IMG/VR virus record: IMGVR_UViG_3300032245_001127 | Reading direction: 5' to 3' (one strand) | Source: a virus | DNA length: 64,000 nucleotides | Made by a program: the position numbers and the translations under genes | Part shown: piece after piece, positions 23,445 to 40,598 of the stretch | How the letters are laid out: the number at the start of each line of letters is the position of its first letter | Numbering within the stretch: the first letter of the stretch is position 1 | The notes under the pieces: generated by a model | What the model was told of the DNA's origin: nothing | The model's database searches: none | Seen by the model: the letters and a program-made list of their open reading frames with translations, nothing else

Positions 23445-26400
23445 TTACATACCCCCAAGAGCAATTGCTAATGCTGCTGCTGTTGAAGAAGAAACTCCAC
23501 CACCACCACCAACACCATTTGTAGCTGTAGCCACGCTCACGTTACTTCCTGAAGGATAACCACCTGCTGAATTATTATTAAATACAAAATAACCATCAGC
23601 ATGCATTGAAACTTTTGTTGATCCCATAAATAATGAAGCACCATCTAGATATAAATGTCTAAATTTATTTGCTGCTGATCCTAAATCAATTGTTGCGTTT
23701 GCGTTTGGTATTAAATTTCCACTAATTGTTGCAGCACCAATTGTTTTATTCGTTAGTGTATCTGTAGTCGCTCTACCAACTAATGTGTCTGTTGAAGTTG
23801 GTAATGTAAGTGTTCCTGTATTAGATATAGTGCTAATAATAGGCGAAGTTAAAGTTTTATTTGTAAGCGTATCAGTTGTTGCTCTTCCAACTAAAGTGTC
23901 AGTTGAAGTAGGTAATGTCAATGTTCCAGTGTTAGAGATAGAAGATATAACTGGAGATGTTAATGTTTTATTTGTTAAAGTATCTGTAGTCGTTCTACCA
24001 ACTAAAGTATCTGTTGATGTAGGTAATGTCAATGTTCCAGTGTTAGAGATAGAAGATATAACTGGAGATGTTAATGTTTTATTTGTTAATGTGTCTGTAG
24101 TTGCACGACCAACTAATGTATCAGTTGCTGATGGTAATGTTAATGTTCCGCTCGCAGTCGCAGCCACATTTAATGTTGTTTTACCTGAACTTGAACCACT
24201 TAATGCTAATGTTTTTCCTGCAGCAGTTTCAGTGTTTCCTAATACAACGACACCAGTTCCTTTTGGTGTAATATTAAGTCCAACATTTGCGTCTGATCCT
24301 GTTGCAGAAAGAGTTGGGTTATTTCCTGTTGCAGCATTGTTAATCGCAAGTTCATTTACAGCACCAAGCGTTTCATTAATTCTTAGAACAAGAGTACTAT
24401 TGTTTGTTATTATTCCAGCAAGCCCATAACCATTTGGCACAATCTTTGGTAATTCTAAGTTTTTATTCGTTAATGTTTCAGAACCATCTAAAGTCGCAAC
24501 AGTACCAGTTGTTGGTAAAGTTATTGATGTATTTGCAGTAGTTGTTAAACCAAGAGTATGAGCACCAGTATGTGTAAAATTACCACCAAGTGTAAGTGTT
24601 TTGCCAGAATTATTTACTCCAGTTCCACCATATTGACCAGCGATTGCTGAACCTTGCCATGTTCCACTCGAAATTGTTCCTAATGTTGTAATTGTGTTTT
24701 GACCAGCATATGTTGAAGCAATATCAATACTATTTGCATTTACAGTAATACGATCTGCAGTTCCAACTGCGTCAATTGTATTACCATCTTTTGTTAATCC
24801 ATTTCCAGCTATTATTTGACCAGCACCAGAAAATTGAGTAAATGAAATATTTGTAGTTCCGACTGTAACCATTGGGATTGTTTGTACAAATCCTTGATTA
24901 CCAAATTGTGTTCCATTTGATACAAATAAGAAATCACCACTCGCAACTTCTGAAACAGAATCAAAATCTGTTGCTCTTGTTAATATTGTTTTTGTTGCGT
25001 CAATAGTATAGATACCATTGTGAGCAGCATTTGCTTGATTTTTAATTAAAAGTCTATCACCACTTACTACTGTGTATGATGTATCTAAAGTTGTTAAAGC
25101 ATTTTGTAATGTTAATGTTGCACCATTTCCAGCTGTACCATTATCGTAAGTGACTGTGCCACCTGTTAAAACTGCAAGTGTGTCTGTTGTTGCAGCTTTT
25201 ACTGATGCATGAACGTGAAGACCTGCTTCAAGAGCATCAATATAAGATTTTGGAACAAGAGAATTAGCACCAAATCCTGCTCTTCCAGTATAACCAGCAG
25301 GAACATTTACAACTCCTGTTCCATCTGGCGATAATGATATATTAGAATTACTTGTTGTGCTAATAGTTGTGATAACTGGCGAAGTTAAAGTTTTATTTGT
25401 TAATGTTTCAGCACCACTAATTGTAACAAAATTATCATCTGATAATGCTGTATTAAATTCAGCTGTAGTTCCAGTAATTATATTATTAGCTAAATTGATT
25501 GATTTATTTGTTAATGTATCTGTAGTTGCTTTTCCAACTAAAGTATCTGTTCCTGTAGGAATAGTTATTGTTCCACTATTAGAAACAGAAGATATTACAG
25601 GAGTTGTTAATGTTTTGTTTGTTAATGTTTCTGTTCCAGTTAATGAAACGAAATTATCATCTGATAATGCAGTATTGAATTGTGCTAATGTTCCTGTAAT
25701 TGTGTTTGATGTTAAATCAATTGATTTGTTTGTTAATGTGTCTGTAGTTGCACGACCAACTAATGTATCTGTTCCAGTAGGAATAGTTATTGTTCCACTA
25801 TTAGAAATACTAGAAATAACAGGAGTAGTTAATGTTTTGTTTGTTAAAGTATCTGTTGTAGCTCTACCAACTAAAGTATCAGTTGATGTTGGTAATGTTA
25901 ATGTTCCAGTATTACTGATTGAAGATATTATAGGAGTCGTTAATGTCTTATTCGTTAATGTTTCTGTTCCTGCAAGTGTAGCGAAATCACCATCACTCAA
26001 TGCTGCATTAAACTCTGCTTTAGTACCTGTAATTGTATTAGTTGTAAGACTTATAGATTTATTTGTTAAAGTTTCAGAACCTGCTAATGTAGCAAAATCT
26101 GCATCAGTCATAGCTGCATTAAACTCTGCTTTAGTGCCTGTAATTGTATTAGTTGTAAGACTTATAGATTTATTTGTTAATGTATCTGATGTTGCTCGAC
26201 CAACTAAAGTATCAGTTGCGTCTGGAAGAGAAAGTGTTCTGTCTGCTGTTGGATCAACTGTTGTTAAAGTTGTTTCAAAATTATCAGCAGTTGCACCCTC
26301 AAATACAAAAGCATTTTGAATATTAACTGTTGTTGAGTCTACTGTAGTTGTTGTACCAGAAACAGTAAGATTACCTGTGACTGTTAAATTATTATTAACT

Positions 26401-27224
26401 GTTGTAGTACCTGTTCCAGCACCAAGATTTAAAGATGTAGCAGCACCACCAACGTTCAATGTTGTGGCAGTTGTATTTAATAAATTGAAAGTTGTTTGAG
26501 AAGTTGTTAGATCACCACCATTAACTGCTAAATCGCCAGCAATAACTGCGTTTCCTGTAGATGCGTTTGATGTAAATTTTGAAGTTGCAACAGAAAAATT
26601 ACTTTCAGCATTTAAAGTTCCTTTAATATTTGTATTTCCTGTAGATGCTTCGATTGTAACTTTATCCGTACCAATTGCTACGTTTCCAGTAATTGCAGCT
26701 GTACCCTCGATCGCAGTATTTCCATTTCCTGCGTTTACTGTAAATTTATCTGTATTTACTGAAAAGTTTCCAACTACATTTGCAGTTGAACCAAGAGATG
26801 CTGCACCAGTTGTGTTTAACGTGTTAGTTCTTACATCTGACCATTTTTTAGAAACTGTACCTAATGAATAAGTGTTATCTGTATTCGGAACTATATTTGA
26901 ATTTACATCTGCACCAAAAACAACATTATCAGTGTCAGCATCACCCATAGTGATTGTTCCACCATTAAATGTTGTTGTTCCTGTAACAGTTAAATTTCCG
27001 CCAACATTTACGTTTCCTGTTGTAGTTAAAGATGCAATCGAAGGAGTTGATGTAGCATCAACGTTTGTCATATCAGCACGTAATAATTCTTTACCACCTA
27101 CTGTTGATCCGTCATGAACAACAGCAACTTTTTTTGAAGTATTAATTGTTAATTCGCCATCTGCTCCTGTGAAAGATGCATGTTGGGCTGTCGTTCCTCT
27201 TCTTAATTGTAATTGTGTTGGCAT
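23445..27224 (-). CDS. long repeat-rich fibre protein (1259 aa) with Mtd_N-like N-terminal domain
   Basis: [12 protein letters not shown]...GELT...VHDG start; Thr/Gly-rich shaft; 37-aa TLTNK repeats; ends [11 protein letters not shown]. Confidence 0.85.
23745..24150 (-). repeat. tandem 111-bp coding repeat (module B x3.5)
   Basis: TLTNK junctions at 24078, 23967, 23856, 23745. Confidence 0.95.
25360..26237 (-). repeat. tandem 111-bp coding array of two alternative modules (A-A-B-B-A-B-A)
   Basis: Eight TLTNK junctions exactly 111 bp apart, from 26169 to 25392. Confidence 0.95.
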
Positions 27225-27225
27225 G

Positions 27226-27582
27226 TTATATTAATCCTTGGTTATCTATAATTCTTAAACCATCTGTTGCTTGATTGTCGTATGTAAATAATACATTTTG
27301 TCCAAAAGCATCAACAGTTGGGTCTGTTATATTTCCATAATCTCCTAATGGAAATACACCATATTTAATTGCAAAAGAAAGTTGATTAAGTAATACGTCA
27401 TCAGTTCCTTCTTGTCCAGCAGTTCCTGCTCCAGATGAAAAATATGCTATTTGTCCTGCAGCATTTTTATAATAAAGTTTTCCATCTGCATAATTTAATG
27501 CAACTTCTCTATATGATAAATCAGAAGGAGATGGCGCAAGATTTGGTATTGCTGAACCTTTAAGTTTTACAACTGTTGCCAT
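27226..27582 (-). CDS. short fibre adaptor-like protein (118 aa)
   Basis: N-terminus VKLKGS...P..L...EVALNYADGKLYYK, similar to the start of the 880-aa protein. Confidence 0.8.
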   Translation of the reverse strand: MATVVKLKGSAIPNLAPSPSDLSYREVALNYADGKLYYKNAAGQIAYFSSGAGTAGQEGTDDVLLNQLSFAIKYGVFPLGDYGNITDPTVDAFGQNVLFTYDNQATDGLRIIDNQGLI

Positions 27583-27681
27583 TTACTTTTTTTCCTTTTG
27601 CTTTTTTCTTTTTTGTATCTCTTTATATCTCTTTTTTAACAATGTACGAAATGGGAGACCTGTACGTTTTCTTTGTGCCAT
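27583..27681 (-). CDS. 32-aa highly basic peptide (absent from the ORF track)
   Basis: MAQRKRTGLPFRTLLKKRYKEIQKRKKQKEKK; its TAA directly abuts the next ATG. Confidence 0.6.
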   Translation of the reverse strand: MAQRKRTGLPFRTLLKKRYKEIQKRKKQKEKK

Positions 27682-27707: not shown

Positions 27708-30350
27708 TTATGCGTAAATTCCACCATCAACATCGCCATAAGTCAAACTTGCGCCATTTCCTGCAACTTGCAATACTTGACCAGCTGTTCCGATGTTCAA
27801 TTTGCTTAATACATTGTTTGCAGTCGCAACTAATAAATCACCAACTGAATAGCTTGATTGACCAGTTCCACCATATGGCGCACCAATTGTTGTGCCTTGC
27901 CATGTACCTGATGAAATTGTTCCTAATGTTGTGATTGAATTTTGTCCAACGTAAGTTGAAGCAATATCGATTGAATCAGCACCAACAGTTATACGATCTG
28001 CAGTTCCAACTACTGCTAAAACACCATTATTAAATGTTAATCCGTTTCCTGCAGTTGAAGATTTTAATCCTAGTTCGTCAGAAACTATTTCTAATCCACC
28101 ATTTGTGTTTAAAACAATATCAAATGTTGTTCCAGTTAATGATAAACCTTGACCAGCTGTATAAGTTCCTGCTCCAGAAAATTGTTCAAATGAAATATTT
28201 GAAGAACCAAACGTAACCATCTGAACTGTTTGCACCCAACCAGTTTTTCCATTTGCTGTACCATATGATACGAATAAAAAGTCTCCACTCGCAACTTCAA
28301 GTACTGTATCAAAATCAGCAGCACGTGTAAATATTGTTGAAGATGTACGAACATAGATACCATTATGAGCAGCATTCGCTTGGTTTTTAATCAATACACG
28401 ATCACCATTTACTAATGAATATCCATCTAATATACTAATTCCTGTTGAAAGAGTAATTGTTGCTCCAGAACCATTTGTTCCATTATCGTAAGTTGCTGTA
28501 CCACCAGAATGTGCTTCAAGTGTAGTTGTTGTAGCAGCTTTTACTGATGCATGAACGTGAAGTCCTTCAGCAACTGCATCTACGTATGCTTTATTCGCAG
28601 CATCTTGTGCCTGTGTTGGTGCTGCAACATTTTGAATTTTCGCAAAGTTTGCAGAAATATGACCTGATCCATTCGGAGCAAGTGTAATTCCACCATTTGC
28701 ATCTGTAGCACTAATTGTGTTTCCATCAATTCTTATATTATCAACATCTAATTGTTGAATACCAGCTAATGATAAAGAAGTTGATCCTAATGAAACAGTC
28801 GTAGATCCAAATGTAACTGAACTGTTCACTAATTGAGCGTTATCTACTCCTGCAGTTTTAATTGATACTGCACCACTACTTACAGAAAAATCTCCTGAAT
28901 CAAAAGAAGCAACCCCTGCATTTGTTGTTGTTGCAAGTTCTGCATCAATTGTTAAAGTGTTTGCAGCATCATTATATGTTAAATCTATTCCTTCGCCAGC
29001 TACTAATAAACCATTAACGATATCTTCAACTCTTTCAGCATTTAAAGTAACATTTCCTGACGAAACTGAGAAATCAGTTGAATCAAAAGATGCAACACCT
29101 TTATTTACTGAAGATGCATCTTCTGCTGAAATTGTTAATGTATTATTTGTGACAGTAGTATCAATTCCTTCACCACCAGTAAATGTTAATGTATCTGTTA
29201 AATGAGCAACCGCATCTGTTCCTGTATCACCTGCAATATTTAATGTAGTTGAAATATTTGCTGTACCAGCAGCAGTTAATTGTCCTTGTGCATTTACAGT
29301 AAATGTAGGGATTGCTGTAGTTGACCCATAAGAACCAGCAGTGACAGCTGTGTTTGTAATATTAATTGTAGAAGTATTTCCTGCATCACTATTTGTGACA
29401 GTAATACCAGTTCCTGAAGTAACTGCACCACCTACTGTATCATAAATGAATTCAGCAAGAGTGTCTGTTGTACCATTAATGTATGGATTGTTTAAAACTA
29501 ATTTACCAGTACCATTTGGAGTTATACTAATATCACCATTTGTGTTTGTAGATGATAATGTATTTGTATCTAATCTTAAATTATCAATATTAATTACACC
29601 ACCAACATTTAAATTTTCAGCAATACCAACACCACCATCAACAACTAATGCTCCAGTTGAAGTTGATGTTGACGTTAAAGTTGAATTAATATTTGTTGTT
29701 AAAATTTTTGACGCAACATCAAGACTGTCTTTGTCTAAAGACATTGCTTCAGTTCCGTCAGTTACAAATTTTAATGTGTCATCTGAAAGTCCTGGAGAAG
29801 ATTCTGCAGAAATGTATGTTAAACCATCAACAGATTTAACACCACCTAGAGATCCCCAAGTTGATCCTGAATATCCTTCGAAAGAAGAAGTTTCAGTATT
29901 GTATCGAATTGTTCCTTGTACGTTCGGTCCACGTTGAGAAGTTGTACCAACTGGAATCGCAACTCCATTTGTGCCTACGATTGATACATAACCAGTTCCA
30001 TTCGGATCTAATACAATATTTCCATTGGCATCAGTTGAAGTAATTGTATTTCCGTTTAGATCTAGATTATCTACTTTTAAATTGTCAAGTTTGCTATTTG
30101 AATCTGTAATTAATGCAGATGATGCTGTAAGTGTACCACGAGTGTGATCAAGTAAATCAGTGAAATATTTTCCACCGACAACAATATGATTTGCTGCGTT
30201 TCCACCTGTTTCAGTACCTATACCAACGTAGAGACGATCACCACCATTGATATCGTTATTTTCTAAAGCCGAATAAGCAAGTTCCCCTGCTGCTAATATT
30301 GCGGGATTTCCTGCCGTACTTGATCGTTTAATTCTTATAATTGATGCCAT
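27708..30350 (-). CDS. fibre protein (880 aa)
   Basis: MASIIRIKRS...GELAY start; three VDN.....NT.S.T..NG.I...PNG.G repeats; two GVASFDS.DFSVSSG repeats; ends DVDGGIYA; AGGAG RBS. Confidence 0.85.
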   Translation of the reverse strand: MASIIRIKRSSTAGNPAILAAGELAYSALENNDINGGDRLYVGIGTETGGNAANHIVVGGKYFTDLLDHTRGTLTASSALITDSNSKLDNLKVDNLDLNGNTITSTDANGNIVLDPNGTGYVSIVGTNGVAIPVGTTSQRGPNVQGTIRYNTETSSFEGYSGSTWGSLGGVKSVDGLTYISAESSPGLSDDTLKFVTDGTEAMSLDKDSLDVASKILTTNINSTLTSTSTSTGALVVDGGVGIAENLNVGGVINIDNLRLDTNTLSSTNTNGDISITPNGTGKLVLNNPYINGTTDTLAEFIYDTVGGAVTSGTGITVTNSDAGNTSTINITNTAVTAGSYGSTTAIPTFTVNAQGQLTAAGTANISTTLNIAGDTGTDAVAHLTDTLTFTGGEGIDTTVTNNTLTISAEDASSVNKGVASFDSTDFSVSSGNVTLNAERVEDIVNGLLVAGEGIDLTYNDAANTLTIDAELATTTNAGVASFDSGDFSVSSGAVSIKTAGVDNAQLVNSSVTFGSTTVSLGSTSLSLAGIQQLDVDNIRIDGNTISATDANGGITLAPNGSGHISANFAKIQNVAAPTQAQDAANKAYVDAVAEGLHVHASVKAATTTTLEAHSGGTATYDNGTNGSGATITLSTGISILDGYSLVNGDRVLIKNQANAAHNGIYVRTSSTIFTRAADFDTVLEVASGDFLFVSYGTANGKTGWVQTVQMVTFGSSNISFEQFSGAGTYTAGQGLSLTGTTFDIVLNTNGGLEIVSDELGLKSSTAGNGLTFNNGVLAVVGTADRITVGADSIDIASTYVGQNSITTLGTISSGTWQGTTIGAPYGGTGQSSYSVGDLLVATANNVLSKLNIGTAGQVLQVAGNGASLTYGDVDGGIYA

Positions 30351-30362: not shown

Positions 30363-30641
30363 TTAAAATTCCCCACTATCTACATTTTGTAGATTTAAAT
30401 TTTTAGTGCTTGTCCATTTTGATGTTGCAGTTTTATAAACTAATACTGAACCATTTTGTAATCCTTCAGAAATTACATCTACTTCTGCGTTTTCACTTAA
30501 AGGAACAACCGCACCAGATGTTCCTTGAATACCAATAGTTGTTATAGTAGTGTTGCCTTCAGTTGACGACTGTGTAAGTGTCGTATTTCCTGGATTCAAT
30601 TCACCACCTTGAGTCGATATATTTGCTATAATTTCTGCCAT
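30363..30641 (-). CDS. small structural/adaptor protein (92 aa)
   Basis: NGSVLVY...SKW; ends NVDSGEF. Confidence 0.75.
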   Translation of the reverse strand: MAEIIANISTQGGELNPGNTTLTQSSTEGNTTITTIGIQGTSGAVVPLSENAEVDVISEGLQNGSVLVYKTATSKWTSTKNLNLQNVDSGEF

Positions 30642-30642
30642 A

Positions 30643-30978
30643 TTATCTTGTTACTTCTGGATTAATTGTAACTATTCCTTCCATTAAACGACTTTTTTTA
30701 CCACTTGCACTTGTCACTTCAACATCATAAACATATCTTCCAGCTTTCATCGCACTTGAAGTAGTTGCACTCAATTCTAATTTAATTTGTCCATTTGTTT
30801 GTGGAGAAATTATAGTTGCTGTAAAGGAAGTATAAGTTGTTGAACCATATCCTCTACGCATTTGAGCAGCAATTGTATAATTGGTAAAATCTCTCGGTGT
30901 ACCATTAACATTCTTAAAATCTATAATCGCTGACCAATCAGTTCCTTGGTCTATAAACAAGTCGCTAACTGTTGCCAT
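30643..30978 (-). CDS. small virion structural protein (111 aa)
   Basis: LFIDQGTD, AQMRR, GRYVYDVEV, R.MEGIVTINPEVT; a family typical of aquatic T4-like phages. Confidence 0.8.
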   Translation of the reverse strand: MATVSDLFIDQGTDWSAIIDFKNVNGTPRDFTNYTIAAQMRRGYGSTTYTSFTATIISPQTNGQIKLELSATTSSAMKAGRYVYDVEVTSASGKKSRLMEGIVTINPEVTR

Positions 30979-31002: not shown

Positions 31003-31641
31003 TTAATTATTCCAAGTATTTACTCGCCATCCTTGAGTAATATTTGTGTAAGTATATAATTTAATTTGTCCTGCAGTCGTACTAATTGGATTAATTGGAG
31101 AAGTTCCATTTCCATCAACGTTATGACCATTTGTATTCAATATAACTCGTTGACTTACAGTTCCCCATGTACGATTTAAATCTCCAATCCAAATTGAATC
31201 ACCTAATATTGCTGTTGCTGGCAGTGTTACTGTAACGTTTCCAGCTGAGGAATTAACCCAATAAAAATTTCCTTTTGAAGCTGTAAAGTCGCTAGTTTTA
31301 ATTTGGTGTGTAAGTGGCAATTTAGAAGTAACTGAATCTGCAAATTTCTCAGCAATGAGTGTGTTATTTGCAACTGTATTTAAAAGTGATTGTTTTGAAA
31401 GATAAATTGCATGAAGTGCAGTTCCTGATGCGATTGCTGCACCAGCAATAGAAATAGTGTTACCACCATTTAAAAGTGTATAATCGATTCCAGGAATTAA
31501 TATTGTTCCTGCTCGAATAAGAAGTATTGATGATGCAGATCCAATCGGATAATCGAGTGCGAAGGAAGTGCTTACACTGTTTGGTGTAAACACTTGAACT
31601 TCGAGACTTCCGTAATTTGGTTCTCTTCCAAGATATGGCAT
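31003..31641 (-). CDS. fibre-associated protein (212 aa)
   Basis: MPYLGREP start; C-terminal VTVTLPATAILGD.I.I.D...GW domain. Confidence 0.8.
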   Translation of the reverse strand: MPYLGREPNYGSLEVQVFTPNSVSTSFALDYPIGSASSILLIRAGTILIPGIDYTLLNGGNTISIAGAAIASGTALHAIYLSKQSLLNTVANNTLIAEKFADSVTSKLPLTHQIKTSDFTASKGNFYWVNSSAGNVTVTLPATAILGDSIWIGDLNRTWGTVSQRVILNTNGHNVDGNGTSPINPISTTAGQIKLYTYTNITQGWRVNTWNN

Positions 31642-34600: not shown

Positions 34601-37218
34601 ATATTTACTGTGAAAGATTGATTCGCAGAAATAGAAGTGCTTCCGAATGAAGATGTTGTTGCAGATGCAGATCCAGAAACAATGTTAGAATCTCTAATGA
34701 CTAATCTTGAGTCATTTACAAATGAAAGAGCATAAACTGTTCCAGATGTTAAACCACCAATGACTGTTCCTGCTGTTGTATATGTTGCAAGAGCACTTCC
34801 TTGTATTTTGTGGTTACGAATATAAATTGTATTATATAACGGATTTGTTTTTTCTGAAGATATAGTAAATTCTATTGGATAAGAAGCTATATCATTTGTG
34901 AAAGGAGCAATTCTTGATGTTAATCTTATATAATTTGATGATATAACATTAACGTCACATTGAACTGATGCTGATGTGATTGGCACAAACGCACCAGAAG
35001 AATCAACGAAACCAAATCTGTTTGTTGTTGAATAACCAGAACCTGTAACTGCAAGAGTTACAACTTCATTATTTACAAGTCCATGACTCGGCACATATAA
35101 TAAATTTTTAAATGCTGTTAAATCGTTTGCGAATCCATAAAAAATATTTGATGAAGAAGTGAAATCTACATAACCTGGATCGTTATAATCTACTGTTATT
35201 GCACCATAACTGTTTGTAGATGTTGAAAGTGCAACATATGGTATATTTCCAGTTCCATATCTTCCATTGTTTACTGTATTTGATTGGTAAGAATATGCAT
35301 CTGAAGCTCCGTTTGTTGATGATGCACCATTTGAACGACCTTGAAATGCAATCAATTTATTTCCTGAAACTCCACCTCTTCCGAATGATGATGAAGCCAA
35401 ATCAGAACCAGAATGTGCGTCATTAATTGCTGTTGGAACATCGTCTACAGACAAATAGTATTCATGGTAGTAGGATGATGTTGGATTACCAAATTTATCT
35501 CTGTTAATCGCACTAAATTGATATTGTATATCAATATAATAACTTCCAGAAGATAGATATAAACATCTAGTTACATCTGTATTTGGATATTCGTATGCAG
35601 TATCTGATCCTTTTGCGGCTAATGAATAGTAAATATTATCAGATCCTTGATTTAAATAATTTCTTGCTAAGTAGTAAATGTTTACAGGGCTTCCTGCCAT
35701 GTTTGTACCAGAATGATACAATTGATAAATTATTGCAGCAACTGGAATACGACTACCACCAATAAATGATGTAACGTCCCAAGTAAACGAATTTGTATTT
35801 GAGTTGTTAATACTTCCTGGAGTGTAACTTCCTGTTGTACCTGTTCTTACGTTTCTTGTATAAAAAGGAGTATATCTTAAAGTATCTTTTTTAGCTTCAA
35901 TTTTATAAACTAATCCAAGACGTGGATATCCTTTTGTTAAATCAATTGCTGTTAAATTCATTTTAGAAGCAAGTGTTCCATAATCACTATACAATTCAAA
36001 AGTATTTGCAGTTAAAACTTTAACATAGTAAACTGTTCCGTCAGTCAGACTACCATTTGTAGATGGACTTGCTTCTGTTCCACGAACTTGAGTTTGAAAT
36101 AATAATGCTGCATTATTTGCAAATCCATGAGCATTCCATGTAACTATGTCCGTAGCAGCATCAACATCAGATGCTTGTAAATATTTAACATAAGTTGGTT
36201 CCCAATCCCAAGTTACTACAGGATATTCATACGCAAGAGATGCTGCACCAATTCCTGTATTTGCAGATACACTATTTGATACTGTAAGTGTTGCTGACGA
36301 ATCAATATAAGGACGACCATCAGGAGCAGTTCCAACTGGATTTGAAATTGAAAGTACTTTAGGACCAATTGTTTGTCTTAAATAAATTTTTGTACCAACA
36401 GCTAATCCATGTGTATCTGATGTTCTTACTGTAAGAGTTGATGGACTTGCTGCATTTGTAGAAATTGCACCATCCGCATTCGAAAGATCTATTTGAAGAT
36501 TTGATCCTTCAAAAAATTTTGCAGGAATTACGTTTGTATATGAACCATTTACAATTTTAGTTTCAAAAGCAGTTTGATCTATTTCGTAGTATAATTCGGT
36601 TGCAACAGGAATACCAGTTACAAGGAATGCACCCTCTGCAGTTATATCGCTTACTCCTGATATAATGATTGGATCTCCAACTGCTAAGTTATGAGCAGTA
36701 GTAAAAATACATTTTACTTGTTTTGACCCTGCTGTCATTGTGATAGATACTAATCCTTCAAGTGATGCGTCACCTGCTGTAGAATAAATTGTAGGAATAT
36801 TTAAAACTGTTTGAAGTGTTTCCCATTTTGTAGATTGTGTGCCATATTCAAAGTCTGTATCAATTAAGTTTTCTGGATTTGATACACGCAATTTGTTCAC
36901 TGGGTCGATCATGGCTTCTTCGAAACCAATACGAGCAAATTCTTCTTCTATAAATATTTGTAAATCATCATTGTTTGTTGTCGGACCTAATGCAGCATTT
37001 GATAATGTTCCTCTTAGAACAAATGTAGTTTTTTCTGAACCTGCGTCGTAAATACGATTCGTTACACCTAATGCTGAATCAGCAAAGTTGTAAATAATTT
37101 TATTTGCAGTAACGTTAGTGATTAATAATAAACGTTCAAGAGGTACGTTACCATCAACAGTAACAGAGTTATTTGAAACGCTAATTTCATATTTTGTAGC
37201 AAGTAGTTTTTTAGGCAT
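31654..37218 (-). CDS. large virion structural protein (1854 aa)
   Basis: KLRVSNPENLIDTDFEYG, RQSRKYFRYQSGKG, YSWYGAGKIRFG and RSGNLPGRYEI blocks with repeated beta domains (H.L.VGD.I). Confidence 0.85.
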   Translation of the reverse strand: MPKKLLATKYEISVSNNSVTVDGNVPLERLLLITNVTANKIIYNFADSALGVTNRIYDAGSEKTTFVLRGTLSNAALGPTTNNDDLQIFIEEEFARIGFEEAMIDPVNKLRVSNPENLIDTDFEYGTQSTKWETLQTVLNIPTIYSTAGDASLEGLVSITMTAGSKQVKCIFTTAHNLAVGDPIIISGVSDITAEGAFLVTGIPVATELYYEIDQTAFETKIVNGSYTNVIPAKFFEGSNLQIDLSNADGAISTNAASPSTLTVRTSDTHGLAVGTKIYLRQTIGPKVLSISNPVGTAPDGRPYIDSSATLTVSNSVSANTGIGAASLAYEYPVVTWDWEPTYVKYLQASDVDAATDIVTWNAHGFANNAALLFQTQVRGTEASPSTNGSLTDGTVYYVKVLTANTFELYSDYGTLASKMNLTAIDLTKGYPRLGLVYKIEAKKDTLRYTPFYTRNVRTGTTGSYTPGSINNSNTNSFTWDVTSFIGGSRIPVAAIIYQLYHSGTNMAGSPVNIYYLARNYLNQGSDNIYYSLAAKGSDTAYEYPNTDVTRCLYLSSGSYYIDIQYQFSAINRDKFGNPTSSYYHEYYLSVDDVPTAINDAHSGSDLASSSFGRGGVSGNKLIAFQGRSNGASSTNGASDAYSYQSNTVNNGRYGTGNIPYVALSTSTNSYGAITVDYNDPGYVDFTSSSNIFYGFANDLTAFKNLLYVPSHGLVNNEVVTLAVTGSGYSTTNRFGFVDSSGAFVPITSASVQCDVNVISSNYIRLTSRIAPFTNDIASYPIEFTISSEKTNPLYNTIYIRNHKIQGSALATYTTAGTVIGGLTSGTVYALSFVNDSRLVIRDSNIVSGSASATTSSFGSTSISANQSFTVNIETPLGVVPNNAEIVGVQFRGYFSGTTRYVTIKFADNINYNIGVINGQNTSSYLDEPTWVSKNISAFLTGSPLGVVVTASPTASVNRVVPGMTNWWEIRFLVTATTGDILLSSSGSGAQNFTVNNVSGAYDGIYTIATTPTTNSFTFGIDFQIPARTYSFNARSTATGGAVNSTDDTIVIGTSNPYAPHNLFPGERITYTPGNGNTDIINDPAVDDYFVIVRDQYTVSLSNSYVSALAGQLVQLSPAASSQTQTLSTTNIVKTAVQSGTVSGVNNTRILSGSGTKFLSKFKRFDSIYILISNRLRKFIVDKITSDTEMTLDISSDVFPSTFNSAQYFTITAVNLRPDGYSLHKSFDGGVDITAGTSPNSRICRQSRKYFRYQSGKGIQNSYAINFSPLKTTQSLTYSLVSGIHVITVVCQEPHNLRVNDSIIIDAATVDIGNNVYNGTFNVRSIVNNTTFTYAVGQAPVQQKAGGFPEYGRNGWRDSYIRAGMFDDSNGFFFEYDGQNLSVVRRSCTLQLSGTCTATRNSQRITGINTSFTGQLVVGDHVSVRGQVYRVVAVNSDSSLTVQPPYRGLTASNIKITKRVDTKIPQSQWNIDPCDGTGVNGYNLDIHKIQMCYADYSWYGAGKIRFGTKDAKGHIHYHHEFIHNNKLNESYFRSGNLPGRYEIENGVSPSSSPTLFHFGTSVIMDGTYDNDGAYLFTGSSKPFVFAQGTTDTITGTSASSFQEITLNARRVYVYSFGVSAADAAKAKVGQLISETSAPGTNIPDGSYVAQVRVEGNNSRIWTSYPATSASPTNLNEIANGTSFTIGENAFGNGAVDLTRPIPLISIRLAPAVDSSLTGVIGEREIVNRMQLILNSASINTNKDVNVFFILNGIPSKLLFDKVPSPSLSNLISHDTGDVIKDGVPIFSTKVSTGSTNIDLKGLIDLGNSILGGDSIFPSGPDLLTVAIQPTDTSTITAASPMFVSGKISWSESQA

Positions 37219-37234: not shown

Positions 37235-37894
37235 TTAATTTAATTCTTCTTTGACATATCTTGGTAAAGCATTCGCATCATGCTTATATACTCCTGTCGG
37301 TGCTGTAATCATATACATTCCTTTAGGATTTCCGCTGATTGTTATATCAGCATCATATACACTTAAACTATGCAACCGATATTTTTCAACAGGTTTTTCG
37401 TTTATATTTAGGTTATCGTCAAGTGCGATAAACTTATATTGTGGGTTTAATTTAAGTATTTTAGGTGTATTTCCTAAAAATTCAGTATATCCGTCCCAAA
37501 TTAATACATCTTTTGGGTCTGAAATACAATAAAACGTACTTTTTTCACTCACAGTTTTTAAACGAACATGTGTTTTACTCGCAGTTGCAAGTATTTCTTC
37601 ATTACTTGGGAGTGGGTTACCAACATAATCGGTTCTTCCATCATACCCTTTCATAATATATGAATAATGAAATCTAAAATTTGGACCCATTATTCCTAAT
37701 TCTTTTTTTGTATCCCAGTCACAAATCGCAACTGCACCCTCTTTAAGTGTTGTAAGTGTGCATAGTTCTACATTTGGGATTCCAATCCATCCTTCTTGTC
37801 CCTTGGTTCCTGTAGCTTTTTGCAATATAAAATTTTCTTTATATTTTGAACAAACTACTTCCCATGACCAATCATCAGGAGTCTTTAATTTCAT
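37235..37894 (-). CDS. hypothetical protein (219 aa), non-fibre composition
   Basis: Tiled ORF with its own late promoter. Confidence 0.75.
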   Translation of the reverse strand: MKLKTPDDWSWEVVCSKYKENFILQKATGTKGQEGWIGIPNVELCTLTTLKEGAVAICDWDTKKELGIMGPNFRFHYSYIMKGYDGRTDYVGNPLPSNEEILATASKTHVRLKTVSEKSTFYCISDPKDVLIWDGYTEFLGNTPKILKLNPQYKFIALDDNLNINEKPVEKYRLHSLSVYDADITISGNPKGMYMITAPTGVYKHDANALPRYVKEELN

Positions 37895-37911: not shown

Positions 37912-38142
37912 TTATCCACCCAATGCGACGCTCATCGCAGTCGTAATTGATGCTGGATTAATTATATCCCATTTAGATCCGTCGTAAATTTCTTCTCTAC
38001 TTAACGATGTATTAAATCTTATGTCACCAGCTTTTGGAACAAGTGGTCTTTCTTCTGTTGTGCCTTTTGCAAGAGTACTTGCAGTTCCTCTTAATTCTAT
38101 ATTTTTTGAAATCGAATTATTTACTATTTTACTGATTGGCAT
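37912..38142 (-). CDS. short fibre adaptor-like protein (76 aa)
   Basis: GTTEERP...GDIRFNT....E.YDG..W knob motif; ends AMSVALGG. Confidence 0.8.
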   Translation of the reverse strand: MPISKIVNNSISKNIELRGTASTLAKGTTEERPLVPKAGDIRFNTSLSREEIYDGSKWDIINPASITTAMSVALGG

Positions 38143-38151: not shown

Positions 38152-38159
38152 TATTTAGT
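38152..38159 (-). promoter_or_regulatory. late promoter
   Basis: ACTAAATA, 9 nt before the ATG. Confidence 0.55.
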
Positions 38160-38163
38160 ATTT

Positions 38164-40053
38164 TTAATCGTTCGAAATATACGATATGCTAAATTCTAAA
38201 ACACTCGAAGCAGTTAAATTTGCAATCGTTGCAGCAGAACCATTTGTTAAAACACCTAATGTTGTTGTGTTTGTAATCGCACGAACCAATGGATTCGTAA
38301 ATGATGTGCCATTTGTAACTAGAAGAGTTCCATAGTCAAATACTACGTTTCCTGCTCCATTTGCAATCGTTGGCATTCCACCAATCGTAAACGTTCCAGA
38401 AGCAGTTCCTAATCCAGTAACTGTAATTTTTCCTGATACTTTTACAAGTCGACCAATTTTAATATATTTTGCTTGATTGAATGAATAAGTTATTCCTGTT
38501 CCAGTTGCTGGGATTAAAGTTGGACTAAAATCTCCTTCTTCATAATCATCTAAAACGTTTGGATTATTCGAAGCATTTTGAGTTCCTGGAAATTGTACAT
38601 ATCCGTTTGTAGTTAAATTTCCTGTAATTGCAAGAGCACCAGCATACGTTTGTTGTGTAAGCAATGTAGGATTGTGTGGTGTATATCCTAAATTCGCAAT
38701 CGCAACACCAGCTGCAAGTTTTGAATTTGTAATTGTACTATCTGCAATTTTTGCAGCAGTAACTGCTTGATCTCTTAATGCTGCAGTTGCAATCGCACCA
38801 TCAACATATGAATTTCTTGATACTGTACCGAATCCTAAATGTAATATGTTTACTTTAATTCCAGCAACTAAAGGGCTTGCTAATCGACAAGTTGTTCCAC
38901 CTACAATCGTATAATCTACTGTATCAGTTTGTACAACTCCATTTATTGTAACTAATATTGCTTGTGGAGAAACTGGAACTTTAGACATTGTAAAATCTTG
39001 TTGATTCAACGTACTTACAAATTTATCAACTGTAAAATTTTTTAAATTATCTGCAAGAGCAAGATCCGTTACAGAACCTGCTGATGGAGTTACTTGATAA
39101 TTTGACCCACCTGTGTGTGTAATGTAAATATTTTGTCCTAATTCTGGAATACCATTAAAAACAACTGCTCTAAATCTTAATAGTTCAATACTTGAAATTA
39201 AAAAAGAACCACCTGTTTCATTTTCATAAGTGATAGTATCTGTATCATAATTTACAGTTTTTGGTTCGTTATATACAACAGTTGTTGCTCCAGCACTAAA
39301 ATTTGCTGTTGATGTTTTAATTACATCTATAAAACTTGTTGTAGCATTTGCTATAATTCCTGTTGCTGAACCTTGTGTTATTTTGTCTGAAATTTTTGGA
39401 GACTCAGCTTCTGCTGTAACTGATGTGGCAGTAAAATATTGATTGAAAGCAGTGGTTGGAAGAGTATTACCAACATCAACAAGACCACTCGGATTAAGTG
39501 CATAATATACGTTGTCTGTTGTGTTTCTAAAAATTAAATAATGTGTAGTTGTATCTGTTACAAATGCTCCAGAAGATAATACACCAACAATAGCTGTTGG
39601 TTGATTAACTGAATCAACTCTATTTACTGTAATTTCTGCAACAAGTGTATTTCCTGTAATTGTACGTTGTTGTAATGTTATAGTATCTCCAGAAGCTGAT
39701 GCAAATGCGTTTACACCATTTAACATATCTTTTACAGAATTATATAATACTGAATTTGATGCATAGTTCGCAACACCAGTCGCAGCACTTCCTGTTGGTT
39801 TTCCAATTGTAATATTTCTTATTTGCTTGATTACACCACCAGAAATAATTATTCGATAAACGTCTTGAATTGTGTATGCAGTTACTGGTTGTTGCGGAAC
39901 GTTATCCACAATCGCTAATACATTTGACTCAAATCCTCCAGGAATTTCTTGAGCAAGGACATATTCTTTTTGATATCCTGTGCCAGCAAATTCGTCTCTC
40001 GGACGAAGCTGAGTATTTAATGCTTCTACATTTGAAGAACCAATATATGCCAT
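38164..40053 (-). CDS. tail fibre protein (629 aa)
   Basis: MAYIG start; ILVTINGVVQ domain; VTAAKIAD..IT.SKLA repeats; C-terminal LDDYEEG...YIKIGRLV domain. Confidence 0.85.
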   Translation of the reverse strand: MAYIGSSNVEALNTQLRPRDEFAGTGYQKEYVLAQEIPGGFESNVLAIVDNVPQQPVTAYTIQDVYRIIISGGVIKQIRNITIGKPTGSAATGVANYASNSVLYNSVKDMLNGVNAFASASGDTITLQQRTITGNTLVAEITVNRVDSVNQPTAIVGVLSSGAFVTDTTTHYLIFRNTTDNVYYALNPSGLVDVGNTLPTTAFNQYFTATSVTAEAESPKISDKITQGSATGIIANATTSFIDVIKTSTANFSAGATTVVYNEPKTVNYDTDTITYENETGGSFLISSIELLRFRAVVFNGIPELGQNIYITHTGGSNYQVTPSAGSVTDLALADNLKNFTVDKFVSTLNQQDFTMSKVPVSPQAILVTINGVVQTDTVDYTIVGGTTCRLASPLVAGIKVNILHLGFGTVSRNSYVDGAIATAALRDQAVTAAKIADSTITNSKLAAGVAIANLGYTPHNPTLLTQQTYAGALAITGNLTTNGYVQFPGTQNASNNPNVLDDYEEGDFSPTLIPATGTGITYSFNQAKYIKIGRLVKVSGKITVTGLGTASGTFTIGGMPTIANGAGNVVFDYGTLLVTNGTSFTNPLVRAITNTTTLGVLTNGSAATIANLTASSVLEFSISYISND

Positions 40054-40061
40054 GAATTTTT

Positions 40062-40385
40062 TTAGATGTCTTCTAAAATACTCGCAATCGCATCAATTGA
40101 TGTTGATGTATTACTTACTACTTTTAGAGCATCTGTATTTGTTAAAACTATTTTTTGACCAGAAATAATTTGTAAAGTGCCACCAGTTGGAACTGGAGCA
40201 TTTTTTACAAGATAATAATCTGAGCCTGAACGAGATATATAAGCATTGACTGTAACTGCAGCATTCGAAGTATTACATACATCCAACTCAATTACAATTG
40301 AATTTTTTGAAGCTGGAGCTGAATACATCGTAACTGGAGTCGTACCAATATCTCGTTGTAATGCGTTTTTAAAGACGTTTGCCAT
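40062..40385 (-). CDS. small structural protein (107 aa)
   Basis: MANVFKN...YSAPA...L.VCN...LVKNAPVPTGG.L...KIVL...D.LKV...SILE. Confidence 0.8.
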   Translation of the reverse strand: MANVFKNALQRDIGTTPVTMYSAPASKNSIVIELDVCNTSNAAVTVNAYISRSGSDYYLVKNAPVPTGGTLQIISGQKIVLTNTDALKVVSNTSTSIDAIASILEDI

Positions 40386-40388
40386 TGT

Positions 40389-40598
40389 TTATCCTAATGC
40401 TATTGTTATCGCTACTGAGTATTCGCGTGTTTCGTTTACTGCTGACACTAAATCTGGTTCTGCATTCGATAAAAGTGCAAGATCACCAATATAGTCTTCT
40501 TGATTATTTGTTTTGGTAATTACTGAATTTGTTTGAACACGCCATTGATCGAACGTATTCGCTTGTGATACAGTATTTACGACAGCTTGTTTTGCCAT
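40389..40598 (-). CDS. minimal fibre anchor/adaptor (69 aa)
   Basis: NTFDQWRVQTN, IGDLALL, DLVSAVNE; ends VAITIALG. Confidence 0.8.
   Translation of the reverse strand: MAKQAVVNTVSQANTFDQWRVQTNSVITKTNNQEDYIGDLALLSNAEPDLVSAVNETREYSVAITIALG

What the first reader, a model, noticed from the sequence alone, without database searches (positions are those of the whole stretch)
23445..40598. Candidate tag/catcher chain for fibre assembly: C-terminal peptide tags matched to the next gene's N-terminal domain
Seen: in transcription order the 92-aa protein ends VDSGEF and the next starts MASIIRIKRS..GELAY (880 aa). That one ends VDGGIYA and the next fibre gene starts MATVVKLKGS..EVALNY (118 aa). That one ends GDYGNIT..IIDNQGLI and the next starts [14 protein letters not shown] (1259 aa). 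A second tag ends three otherwise unrelated proteins: VAITIALG (69 aa, followed by MANVFKN), AMSVALGG (76 aa, followed after one insert by MPKKLL) and ALAIALGGM (1259 aa). MAYIG and MPYLG starts follow the two ALG-downstream proteins (107 aa and 1854 aa). The 69-, 76-, 92- and 118-aa proteins are little more than an input domain plus an output tag. Inference: these are orthogonal plug-and-socket pairs (DxG-aromatic tag to I-K/R-L-K/R-R/G domain; IALG tag to the 107-aa or 1854-aa N-domain) that concatenate and branch fibres. The 1259-aa IALG tag has no adjacent partner and may recruit one in trans. I know of no description of this code but cannot search the literature.
Basis: partly seen in the sequence, partly recalled or inferred. 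Interest (0 to 1): 0.8.

Follow-up and report, generated by a model that had tools for sequence, protein, structure and literature searches.

The report
Strand-docking joints linking phage tail-fibre proteins
In this marine T4-like phage, consecutive tail-fibre genes appear to be joined end to end: a short peptide at the end of one protein is predicted to dock onto the first domain of the next, a rule also seen in unrelated phages, so fibre architecture could be read from gene order.

Summary
The window is the fibre module of a T4-like marine myophage.

**Joint 1 (well supported).** C-terminal D/E-x-G-x-aromatic/aliphatic peptides precede genes that start with an Mtd_N-like domain.
- About 190 related loci show strict subtype pairing: 46/49, 59/63 and 13/13 unique junctions.
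- The peptide is kept through free synonymous change.
- The same tag ends the gene upstream of Mtd_N genes in about 10 unrelated phages, including Bordetella BPP-1 (Bbp9 before Mtd).
- Pseudomonas jumbo phage D6 carries as two genes what RVTF4 and PS119XW carry as one. The break lies exactly between tag and domain.
- A 3+3 complex model scored 0.89 against 0.00 for the best control. Its interface is residues 82-92 of the 92-aa protein and 1-25 of the 880-aa protein.
- The chain starts at an LtfC/p132-like collar protein of 111 aa.

**Joint 2 (adjacency only).** ..AIALG-type ends precede the 107-aa jellyroll family in 20/22 unique junctions, against a 2% background. No complex was modelled for it.

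Orthogonality and branching are untested. FWSEAQA ends break the "code". Four earlier first-reader notes of this scan describe the same grammar on other genomes. I found no published description.

The parts
30643..30978 (-). 111-aa LtfC/p132-like beta-sandwich, proposed virion-side anchor (collar) at the head of the chain
   Evidence: phrog_3304 'L-shaped tail fiber protein assembly' E 3e-22. Pfam LtfC 19.3 bits, below the cut-off of 27. The AF2 model has pLDDT 92.4. Its best PDB matches are DT57C baseplate 8hqz chains T/Q (TM 0.80/0.78) and T5 tail tip 7qg9 chains L/J (TM 0.75/0.73). I take those chains to be LtfC/p132 from their length and the DT57C paper, not from a chain label. It is fused to the tag-bearing domain in L115 (172 aa).
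30363..30641 (-). 92-aa connector protein; conserved core NGS-L-Y-K-T-x-T-x-K-W and a C-terminal tag
   Evidence: It lies between the LtfC-like gene and the MASIIRIKRS gene in nearly all loci L101-L179.
30366..30398 (-). Tag a: residues 82-92 of the 92-aa protein (LNLQNVDSGEF)
   Evidence: These residues form the whole modelled interface on this chain. Q85 and G90 are invariant, and N86 and E91 nearly so.
27708..30350 (-). 880-aa fibre protein (proximal shaft)
   Evidence: tblastn hits 'tail fiber' genes of Methylophilales phage Melnitz and Pelagibacter phage Mosig.
30171..30350 (-). N-domain subtype A (MASIIRIKRS..GELAY), Mtd_N-like socket of the 880-aa protein
   Evidence: Modelled contacts are at residues 1-10, 13, 16-18, 20 and 23-25. 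The most conserved positions lie there. It aligns in register with Mtd_N, but the statistics are weak (hhalign E 0.005).
27711..27731 (-). Tag b: VDGGIYA at the end of the 880-aa protein
   Evidence: In relatives..DGGTY is followed by a subtype-B start in 59 of 63 unique junctions. DGGTY is written in 34 DNA versions with free synonymous change.
27226..27582 (-). 118-aa mini-adaptor: subtype-B N-domain (MATVVKLKGS..EVALNY) plus tag c (IIDNQGLI, 27229-27252)
   Evidence: phrog_17885 tail fiber N-terminus E 7e-6. Homologues in L003, L004 and L102 end ..IDNEGLV and abut an Mtd_N gene with a 1-nt gap.
23445..27224 (-). 1259-aa fibre protein (distal shaft); canonical Mtd_N at residues 6-41 (27102-27209); ends ALAIALGGM (23448-23474)
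   Evidence: Pfam PF18454 45 bits, cut-off 26.3. A profile of the N-domains hits the Mtd crystal structures 1yu0-1yu4 at E 3e-16.
40389..40598 (-). 69-aa protein ending VAITIALG (tag d at 40392-40415)
   Evidence: Homologues in L105 and L110 end ..SIAITIALG and also abut the 107-aa gene.
40062..40385 (-). 107-aa jellyroll protein, candidate socket for ..AIALG ends
   Evidence: AF2 pLDDT 92.5, nine strands. The fold matches are generic jellyrolls, such as Ena pilus subunits and IBDV VP2. It is always preceded by a ..[LF]G end. One natural fusion joins it to a MAFIG-start domain (P0001).
38164..40053 (-). 629-aa protein with a MAYIG-type N-domain
   Evidence: A profile of MAYIG N-domains hits fibre protein gp28 of cyanopodophage P-SCSP1u (8i4m) at E 8e-11.
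37912..38142 (-). 76-aa protein ending AMSVALGG (tag d at 37915-37938)
   Evidence: 76-80-aa homologues ending ..I(G/A)LGG sit at the same place in L105, L106, L110, L111 and L112.
37235..37894 (-). 219-aa protein of unknown family between the 76-aa and 1854-aa genes
   Evidence: No Pfam or PHROG hit. A gene of 176-234 aa holds this position in six other loci of the clade, seven counting L081, a near-identical contig. It is absent from cyanophage-type loci.
31654..37218 (-). 1854-aa protein (MPKKLL..KY start, ..SWSESQA end)
   Evidence: Its N-terminus is homologous to the 953-aa MARQLIEKY family, which directly follows ..IIFGF ends. There is no homology to the 107-aa family.
31003..31641 (-). 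212-aa protein with a MPYLG (MAYIG-type) N-domain

Best explanation
**What it is.** The region is the tail-fibre module of a T4-like marine myophage. At least one fibre appears to be built as a linear chain of separately encoded trimers. In gene order these are:
- a 111-aa LtfC/p132-like collar protein,
- a 92-aa connector,
- an 880-aa shaft,
- a 118-aa knee adaptor,
- a 1259-aa distal shaft.

**How each of the last three joints works.** The final 6-11 residues of the proximal protein carry the motif acidic-x-G-x-hydrophobic. These residues lie as an added beta-strand on the first strand of the Mtd_N-type N-terminal domain of the next protein (Phi-x-Phi-K/R-K/R-G/S .. GEL). Acidic tag residues face the basic K/R pair. 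The tag plus the N-domain form one structural module that can be encoded in cis or split between two genes.

**Second joint type.** A C-terminal ..A-I-A-x-A-I-A-L-G strand is followed by a 107-aa jellyroll protein and then by a MAYIG-type N-domain protein. This probably links other baseplate fibres.

**Shown:** the motifs, their conservation, the split/fused pair, and the fold of the 111-aa and 107-aa proteins.
**Predicted:** the 92/880 interface.
**Inferred:** the other joints, the order of the chain, and the anchor role of the 111-aa protein.
For: **Complex model.** Three copies of the 92-aa protein were modelled with three copies of residues 1-110 of the 880-aa protein.
- The score was 0.89 in all three runs; the best of 3 controls scored 0.00. 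That mark was reached by 58 of 80 solved complexes and 2 of 110 mismatched pairs.
- The runs agree in at least 100% of contacts, and partner pLDDT is 92-94.
- The interface is exactly residues 82-92 against 1-10, 13, 16-18, 20 and 23-25.
- Neither family has a solved relative, so recall of a known complex is unlikely.

**Subtype pairing in about 190 loci.**
- xGGEF is followed by an IIRIKRS start in 46 of 49 unique junctions.
- DGGTY is followed by a VLLKKSS start in 59 of 63.
- D-x-G-x-[ILV]-x and DFGxL ends are followed by a QLQLRRG start in 13 of 13.
- The exceptions are small inserted ORFs with the expected gene right after them.

**Selection acts on the protein.** DGGTY is written in 34 DNA versions and sits on several unrelated C-terminal domains.

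**Independent lineages.** The gene upstream of an Mtd_N-start gene ends as follows:
- BPP-1 Bbp9: ..ADLGGIA
- S-TIP37: ..IDFGTL
- a Syntrophomonadaceae phage: ..DWGSLT
- Pseudomonas AH02: ..NLGGLA
- Vibrio D181: ..DDGGLS
- Vibrio 1.021.A: ..DYGSVA
- Drulisvirus AV102: ..MDLGEL
- a proteobacterial prophage: ..LDGGSV

**Rosetta stone.** D6 genes WDS62244 (ends ..FDEGRVTP) and WDS62243 (starts MVIQFKRG) equal one 339-aa protein in RVTF4 (72% and 56% identity) and in PS119XW. Vibrio 1.007.O also carries the tag and domain in cis.

**Domain position and anchor.**
- The Mtd_N-like domain is N-terminal in 74 of 76 local hits.
- The 111-aa model matches the DT57C and T5 collar at TM 0.80. In DT57C that collar holds the fibre by beta-strand donation (PMC10713586).

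**Joint 2.** Searches give the adjacency, and P0001 is a natural fusion of the jellyroll with a MAFIG-start domain.
Against: - No experiment was done, and only one pair was modelled. The calibration of that score held for pairs of single chains, not 3+3 assemblies with my own alignments.
- Gene order is conserved among relatives, so strict subtype pairing is confounded with synteny.
- By sequence statistics only the 1259-aa N-domain is a proven Mtd_N. Subtypes A and B align in register, but weakly (hhalign E 0.005 and 0.002, probability 7-14%). Alone they do not find Mtd in the PDB.
- Many canonical Mtd_N genes in cyanophage-type loci follow ..FWSEAQA (28 junction occurrences, not dereplicated; 24 unique) or other ends without the tag.
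- Two Mtd_N genes follow ..AIAVALG.
- Vibrio K437b has only ..TATGLA.
- Mtd crystallised as a stable trimer without any tag, so the tag is not needed for folding.
- For joint 2 there is no model, and no fusion of an IALG end with the jellyroll was found.
Confidence: 0.72

Rival explanations
1. The conserved ends are only markers of conserved synteny or module boundaries. That is, they would be recombination linkers or translational-coupling signals between neighbouring fibre genes, with no protein-protein docking.
For: Gene order is highly conserved in the related loci. Several junctions are very tight, for example a 1-nt gap between the 118-aa and 1259-aa genes. Mosaic exchange of fibre bodies between conserved ends is visible.
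Against: - The tag is kept at the protein level with free synonymous change: 34 DNA versions of DGGTY.
- It recurs in unrelated phage families whose neighbouring protein bodies show no likeness.
- Inserted ORFs can separate the tag gene from the socket gene without loss of either (L019, L115, L177, L182).
- The D6 versus RVTF4 split/fusion and the complex model point to a physical unit.
Confidence: 0.08
2. The tags are self-contained C-terminal caps, or chaperone or trimerisation signals of their own fibre. The Mtd_N-like domains each dock onto the baseplate or another common site, so the proteins are parallel fibres rather than one chain.
For: - Mtd_N-start genes are often preceded by ends without the tag: FWSEAQA 28 times..QFIGK 7 times.
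- Tandem Mtd_N paralogues occur (L025).
- The window holds three Mtd_N-like starts, which would need strict specificity to assemble in order. That specificity is untested.
Against: - The modelled interface uses exactly the tag and the N-terminal strand, with controls at 0.00.
- Tag and domain are contiguous in cis forms.
- Proteins of 82-118 aa that hold little beyond an N-domain and a tag make sense as in-line adaptors, not as fibres.
Confidence: 0.12
3. This rival concerns the second joint only. The 107-aa jellyroll would be a fibre chaperone or a tip-bound adhesin that binds ..AIALG ends, as T2-type gp38 binds gp37 or as Tfa proteins do. It would not be an in-line adaptor, and it could serve all three IALG ends of the window in trans.
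For: - Small genes right after fibre genes are often chaperones or tip proteins (established knowledge of T4/T2 gp38, Mu and lambda Tfa; Pam3 chaperone, PMC9608196).
- IALG-ended fibres are often the last gene before gp13, with no adjacent partner (13 unique junctions).
- The window has three IALG ends and one jellyroll gene.
Against: - The upstream IALG proteins are often tiny (67-135 aa) and would hardly need a chaperone.
- The jellyroll is usually followed by a MAYIG-type protein and is fused to one in P0001. This fits a middle position in a chain.
Confidence: 0.3

Closest known systems
Bordetella phage BPP-1 Mtd (major tropism determinant), N-terminal beta-prism, Pfam PF18454, PDB 1yu0
   Same: The 1259-aa protein carries the same N-terminal domain. 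[quoted passage not shown] The upstream BPP-1 gene bbp9 ends ..ADLGGIA, the same tag class.
   Different: For BPP-1, the papers I read give no residue-level partner or tag. Here the domain is used three times in series, with mini-adaptors. Two of the three copies are divergent subtypes that the Pfam model does not detect.
T5/DT57C lateral tail fibre attachment: LtfC (p132) collar and LtfA
   Same: The 111-aa protein has the LtfC fold (TM 0.80) and heads the fibre gene chain. In DT57C the fibre is fixed by donating beta-strands to the LtfC sheets (PMC10713586). This is the same kind of joint as proposed here.
   Different: LtfC is a dodecameric ring on a siphophage tail tip. Its place on a T4-like myophage is unknown. 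Here a separate 92-aa connector follows instead of LtfA, and the Pfam score is below the cut-off.
Anchor / T4gp10-like branching domain / conserved N-terminal peptide systems of Klebsiella and E. coli podophages (KP32, K11, KP34, K1-5, SP6, G7C)
   Same: Separately encoded receptor-binding proteins are joined through a short conserved terminal peptide and a docking domain. The parts are modular and exchangeable (PMC6872550, PMC13352976).
   Different: There the peptide is at the N-terminus of the distal protein (for example MALxxLV) and the socket is an internal gp10-like domain of the proximal protein. Here the peptide is at the C-terminus of the proximal protein and the socket is the N-domain of the distal one. 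No gp10-like domain was detected.
T4 long tail fibre gp34-gp35-gp36-gp37
   Same: It is a serial fibre made of separately encoded proteins, with gene order matching the order in the fibre and a small protein at the knee (established knowledge).
   Different: No sequence homology was detected, apart from a weak PHROG hit of the 212-aa protein to the proximal subunit. The T4 joints are not known to use this tag or domain.
Donor-strand complementation in chaperone-usher pili; split-domain pairs such as SpyTag/SpyCatcher
   Same: It works alike: a terminal strand of one subunit completes or extends a beta-structure of the next, and the domain can be encoded whole or split.
   Different: The families are unrelated. 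No chaperone-usher machinery is present and nothing suggests a covalent bond.

Membership tests
Mtd_N (PF18454) | Match to the Pfam model above its gathering score | tested here: met
   The 1259-aa protein scores 45 bits against a cut-off of 26.3, at residues 6-41. This holds for that protein only.
Mtd_N (PF18454) | The same, for the 880-aa and 118-aa N-domains | tested here: inconclusive
   There is no Pfam hit at E 0.01. hhalign against the canonical set gives E 0.005 and 0.002 at probability 7-14%, but aligned in register from residue 1. Their own profiles do not find Mtd in the PDB. A mixed profile does, at E 3e-16.
Mtd_N (PF18454) | Domain at the extreme N-terminus of a fibre or receptor-binding protein | tested here: met
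   74 of 76 local hits begin at residues 1-5.
Mtd_N (PF18454) | Trimeric beta-prism fold | not testable with these tools
   The complex model gave partner pLDDT 92-94, but its coordinates could not be inspected or searched.
LtfC / p132 collar (PF23926) | Match to the Pfam model above its gathering score | tested here: not met
   19.3 bits against a cut-off of 27, E 0.0017. However, phrog_3304 matches at E 3e-22.
LtfC / p132 collar (PF23926) | Compact single-domain beta-sandwich fold of LtfC | tested here: met
   The model has pLDDT 92.4. The top four PDB matches are 8hqz chains T/Q and 7qg9 chains L/J, at TM 0.73-0.80 and 22-24% identity.
LtfC / p132 collar (PF23926) | Forms a ring on the tail that holds fibre N-termini by strand donation | not testable with these tools
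   Support is indirect only: its position at the head of the fibre genes, and its fusion to the tag-bearing domain in L115.
Anchor-branch-conserved-peptide RBP systems | T4gp10-like branching domain on the proximal protein | tested here: not met
   Pfam scans of all 14 proteins of the module returned no gp10-like family.
T4 long tail fibre proteins gp34-gp37 | Sequence homology to gp34, gp35, gp36 or gp37 | tested here: not met
   The only hit is weak: phrog_972 on residues 114-210 of the 212-aa protein, E 5e-5.
T7-type tail fibre N-terminal beta-sandwich (MAYIG class) | Profile match to a solved podophage fibre | tested here: met
   The profile hits P-SCSP1u fibre gp28 (8i4m) at E 8e-11 and a K1 depolymerase (9k4a) at E 7e-7. 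No Pfam family was assigned.

The most novel reading that the evidence does not exclude
The proposal is a general docking grammar for phage fibres that can be read from sequence.
- A C-terminal acidic-x-G-x-hydrophobic strand docks on Mtd_N-type N-domains. This holds in myo-, podo- and jumbo phages, including the attachment of the diversity-generating Mtd of BPP-1.
- Mutually specific subtypes of this joint fix the order of a five-protein chain.
- A second, independent joint links ..AIALG ends to a jellyroll adaptor and then to MAYIG domains.

Together these would let the connectivity, and possibly the branching, of uncultured phages' fibres be read from gene ends alone.
Probability: 0.3. Interest if true: 0.8.

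Novelty: new variant of a known kind. Interest (0 to 1): 0.66.

Why it matters
- **Annotation.** Fibre genes of marine T4-like phages are mostly labelled 'hypothetical' or generic 'tail fiber', and no virion structure of their fibres turned up in the papers searched. A simple end-to-start rule would tell which proteins form one fibre and in what order.
- **Mtd attachment.** The rule gives a concrete, testable answer to how Mtd-type receptor-binding proteins are attached, including the BPP-1 archetype (the Bbp9 C-terminus).
- **Modular evolution.** It explains how fibre bodies are exchanged while the joints stay fixed, which is a route for modular host-range evolution in the ocean.
- **A small split module.** It offers a naturally split docking module. 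The tag is about 10 residues and the N-domain is about 40 (Pfam match 6-41), of which the first 25 make the modelled contacts.

Tried and rejected
- **Shine-Dalgarno idea.** I asked whether the conserved GG of the tag is really a ribosome-binding site (GGAGG) for the next gene. This was rejected. The glycine codons vary freely (GGT, GGC, GGA), and the distance to the next start is often 60 nt or more.
- **Fused tag plus Mtd_N proteins in the T4-like loci.** None were found; only 2 weak internal hits out of 76. Fused forms turned up only in cultured Vibrio and Pseudomonas jumbo phages.
- **Homology between the 107-aa jellyroll and the N-terminus of the 1854/953-aa family.** None was found (hhalign probability 0.3%), so the two proteins found downstream of IALG ends are unrelated.
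- **Fusions of an IALG end with the jellyroll among longer proteins.** None appeared among 5 hits.
- **Fold search of the 107-aa model.** It gave only generic jellyroll matches at TM about 0.5.
- **Own assembly.** It is not held. A Pfam Mtd_N search of the nearest record, G001, found nothing, and nothing rang in the control genomes either, so that tool does not see this short family.
- **Scan of bacterial genome contigs with the Mtd_N alignment.** It returned only 10 loci because a single narrow pattern was used.
- **Literature.** Searches for Mtd_N/PF18454, beta-prism fibre adaptors, pelagimyophage fibres and T4-like cyanophage cryo-EM found no description of this tag. The phi24B and Peru-2 papers were read and are unrelated.

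Full report
**What the window is.** All genes from 1820 to 60065 lie on the minus strand and form the structural module of a T4-like myophage. They include gp5-, gp6-, gp7- and gp8-like baseplate genes, a 2401-aa DUF4815 protein, the fibre genes, gp13/gp14/gp15-like neck genes, terminase, sheath, tube and portal. GC content is about 32%. The nearest cultured relatives of the 880-aa fibre protein are Limnohabitans phage DC31, Methylophilales phage Melnitz and Pelagibacter phage Mosig. The window's own assembly is not held. A near-identical IMG/VR contig supplies loci L081 and L101.

**Observation.** The transcription order between the DUF4815 gene and gp13 is:

| Protein | Start / family | End |
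|---|---|---|
| 72 aa | phrog_473 | |
| 69 aa | | ..AITIALG |
| 107 aa | MANVFKN | |
| 629 aa | MAYIG | |
| 76 aa | | ..SVALGG |
| 219 aa | | |
| 1854 aa | MPKKLL | ..SWSESQA |
| 212 aa | MPYLG | |
| 111 aa | | |
| 92 aa | | ..VDSGEF |
| 880 aa | MASIIRIKRS | ..VDGGIYA |
| 118 aa | MATVVKLKGS | ..IIDNQGLI |
| 1259 aa | [10 protein letters not shown] | ..AIALGGM |

**The N-domains.**
- The 1259-aa protein has a Pfam Mtd_N domain at residues 6-41, scoring 45 bits against a cut-off of 26.3.
- The three N-termini of the window and their relatives align from residue 1 on a common pattern: Phi-x-Phi-K/R-K/R-G/S, then GEL, then L-Y/R.
- A profile of that alignment finds the Mtd crystal structures at E 3e-16 and nothing else.
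- Taken alone, subtype A (880-aa type) and subtype B (118-aa type) are only weakly linked to the canonical set. hhalign gives E 0.005 and 0.002, and neither finds Mtd in the PDB.
- I therefore call subtypes A and B Mtd_N-like, not proven members.
- The domain is N-terminal in 74 of 76 local hits.

**Conservation of the junctions.** I fetched 179 loci from IMG/VR. They were anchored on gp13, on the 72-aa protein and on the 92-aa family. Ten more came from bacterial genome assemblies.
- The core order is kept in almost every locus, while lengths and bodies of the fibre proteins vary widely. That order is: LtfC-like 111 aa, then a protein of about 83 aa ending ..EGGEF, then a MASIIRIKRS.. protein ending ..DGGTY, then a MANKVLLKKSS.. 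protein.
- Counting unique junctions:
  - xGGEF ends are followed by subtype A in 46 of 49.
  - DGGTY ends are followed by subtype B in 59 of 63.
  - D-x-G-x-[ILV]-x and DFGxL ends are followed by canonical Mtd_N in 13 of 13.
- The exceptions are small inserted ORFs, with the expected gene right behind them. One of these looks like a homing endonuclease (L177).
- A generic tag pattern has a background rate of 1.2%.
- DGGTY is attached to several unrelated C-terminal domains.
- DGGTY is encoded in 34 different ways with free synonymous change. Selection therefore acts on the peptide, not on the DNA.

**Independent lineages.** In BPP-1, the gene before mtd (bbp9) ends ..ADLGGIA. I sampled twelve other cultured phages that have an Mtd_N match.
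- In eight, a co-directional upstream gene precedes an N-terminal Mtd_N. In seven of these the upstream gene ends in the tag:
  - S-TIP37: ..IDFGTL
  - a gut Syntrophomonadaceae phage: ..DWGSLT
  - Pseudomonas AH02: ..NLGGLA
  - Vibrio D181: ..DDGGLS
  - Vibrio 1.021.A: ..DYGSVA
  - E. coli Drulisvirus AV102: ..MDLGEL
  - Pseudomonas jumbo phage D6: ..FDEGRVTP
- The eighth, Vibrio K437b (..TATGLA), is only loosely similar.
- In three of the twelve (Vibrio 1.007.O, PS119XW, RVTF4) the domain is internal; see the next paragraph.
- In the twelfth, Sinorhizobium phage Phosso, the Mtd_N gene has no co-directional upstream gene.
- A proteobacterial prophage ends ..LDGGSV, overlapping the next start.

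**Split and fused forms.**
- In Vibrio phage 1.007.O the Mtd_N-like domain is internal, starting at residue 154. It is directly preceded by ..DLGSV plus three residues.
- D6 genes WDS62244 (197 aa) and WDS62243 (178 aa) correspond to a single 339-aa protein in RVTF4 and in PS119XW.
- For RVTF4 the identities are 72% and 56%, with blastp E-values of 2e-106 and 4e-35.
- The break falls exactly between the tag and the first strand of the domain.
- Tag and domain are therefore one module that can be encoded in cis or in trans.

**Complex model.** Three copies of the 92-aa protein were modelled with three copies of residues 1-110 of the 880-aa protein, each with an alignment of 55 natural sequences.
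- The score was 0.89 in three runs, against 0.00 for the best of three controls. That mark was reached by 58 of 80 solved complexes and 2 of 110 mismatched pairs.
- The runs agree in at least 100% of contacts, and partner pLDDT is 92-94.
- The calibration was made on pairs of single chains with other alignments, so the counts hold only roughly.
- The confident interface is residues 82-92 (LNLQNVDSGEF) on one side and residues 1-10, 13, 16-18, 20 and 23-25 on the other.
- The closest pairs (85 with 3, 87 with 5, 88 with 6, 90 with 8) run in parallel register. D88 and E91 lie next to R6 and K8.
- These are the most conserved positions of both families.
- Neither family has a solved relative by sequence.
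- The model supports binding but does not show it.

**The head of the chain.**
- The 111-aa protein matches phrog_3304 (E 3e-22) and scores below the cut-off on Pfam LtfC.
- Its model (pLDDT 92.4) finds the DT57C baseplate and T5 tail-tip collar chains as its top four PDB matches, at TM up to 0.80.
- In DT57C this collar fixes the lateral fibre because LtfA donates beta-strands to the LtfC sheets (PMC10713586).
- In L115 the LtfC-like domain and the tag-bearing domain are one 172-aa protein.
- I infer that the 111-aa protein anchors the chain and that the 92-aa protein connects it to the 880-aa shaft.

**The IALG class.**
- Every member of the 107-aa family that has an upstream gene is preceded by a small-hydrophobic strand ending in G. 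Examples are ..AITIALG, ..AVAVALG, ..ALILALG, ..AMAIIFGS and ..FMLMGA.
- These ends sit on proteins of at least ten different architectures, from 67 to 396 aa.
- Counted as unique junctions, this is 20 of 22, against 29 of 1442 elsewhere.
- The 107-aa protein is a confident nine-strand jellyroll with only generic fold matches.
- It is usually followed by a MAYIG-type protein, and it is fused to one in P0001.
- The MAYIG N-domain matches the fibre of cyanopodophage P-SCSP1u.
- IALG ends also occur on the last fibre gene before gp13, as in the 1259-aa protein (13 unique junctions).
- ..IIFGF ends precede the MARQLIEKY family, to which the 1854-aa protein belongs. That family's N-terminus is unrelated to the jellyroll.
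- No model of this joint could be run.
- A chaperone or tip-protein role for the jellyroll remains open.

**Limits of the 'code'.**
- ..FWSEAQA ends precede Mtd_N starts in cyanophage-type loci, but a MAYIG start precedes here.
- Two ..AIAVALG ends precede Mtd_N starts.
- Tandem Mtd_N paralogues end ..EEIYGYV.
- L115 has two DGGTY-ended proteins for one subtype-B gene.
- Subtypes blur in a distant T4-like contig, L182.
- Orthogonality and branching are therefore hypotheses.

**Literature.**
- The Mtd prism is said to attach 'presumably' to the fibre (PMC10743442).
- Terminal-peptide docking of a second receptor-binding protein is established in Klebsiella podophages, but with the opposite polarity and a gp10-like socket (PMC6872550, PMC13352976).
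- I found no description of the C-terminal tag, of its pairing with Mtd_N-type domains, or of the chain in T4-like marine phages.
- Four earlier first-reader notes of this scan describe the same grammar on other genomes. These are unchecked notes and do not count as independent evidence.

**Verdict.** The plug-and-socket reading is well supported for the D-x-G class and plausible for the IALG class. It is a new variant of known fibre-joining systems, and it is ready for experimental testing.

Noticed in passing
window 27583-27681 (-): A 32-aa, very basic ORF (MAQRKRTG..KKQKEKK) fills the gap between the 880-aa and 118-aa genes. Its stop codon abuts the ATG of the 118-aa gene. Relatives carry a 57-62-aa strongly acidic ORF at the same place (L102:13004-13177, and in L003).
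   Followed up: partly
L177:1640-2236: A 198-aa ORF is inserted between the ..EGGEF gene and the MASIIRIKRS gene and overlaps the former by 32 nt. Its start (..YLLKHIPTGKFYY) looks like a GIY-YIG-type homing endonuclease.
   Followed up: no
window 37235-37894 (-); L102, L105, L106, L110, L111, L112: The 219-aa gene between the 76-aa and 1854-aa genes has no family hit. A gene of 176-234 aa holds that position throughout this pelagimyophage-like clade. It is absent from cyanophage-type loci, where the ..IIFGF protein directly abuts the 953-aa protein.
   Followed up: partly
L115:12783-16931: A 1382-aa protein without an Mtd_N start (MANRYWVGG..) also ends ..TDGGTY. It lies between a DGGTY-ended fibre and the single subtype-B gene. 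Two plugs for one socket type could mean alternative or branched fibres.
   Followed up: no
L025:412-2588 (also L027, L122, L128, L140): There are tandem paralogues of about 230-245 aa. Each starts with a canonical Mtd_N (MSKQV(R/K)(F/L)RRGTTAQH) and ends ..EE(I/F)YG(Y/F/L)(V/W).
   Followed up: no
L200 (Pseudomonas phage D6), L201 (PS119XW), L202 (RVTF4): A virion protein is split into two genes in D6 and fused in the other two jumbo phages. The fused proteins are annotated as 'tail assembly protein' or 'N-acetylmuramoyl-L-alanine amidase', which looks like mis-annotation.
   Followed up: partly
window 21778-22695 (-): The gp14-like neck protein ends ..NPFGEF. This looks like a tag but is followed by gp15, not by an Mtd_N start. 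It is an example of a false positive for simple tag patterns.
   Followed up: no
window 37912-38142, 27708-30350 and 30363-30641 (-): A hairpin-like motif G-x-(I/L)-(R/L)-(F/Y)-(N/K)..W recurs in three proteins: the 76-aa protein (GDIRFNT..YDGSKW), the 880-aa protein (GTIRYNTETSSFEGYSGSTW) and the 92-aa protein (GSVLVYKTATSKW). It matches the N-terminal part of many PHROGs of unknown function.
   Followed up: no
P0001 (527 aa, ENA metagenome protein): This is a natural fusion of the 107-aa-type jellyroll (residues 1-103) with a domain that begins ..MAFIGRKPT. The second domain is the type of protein usually encoded by the next gene.
   Followed up: partly
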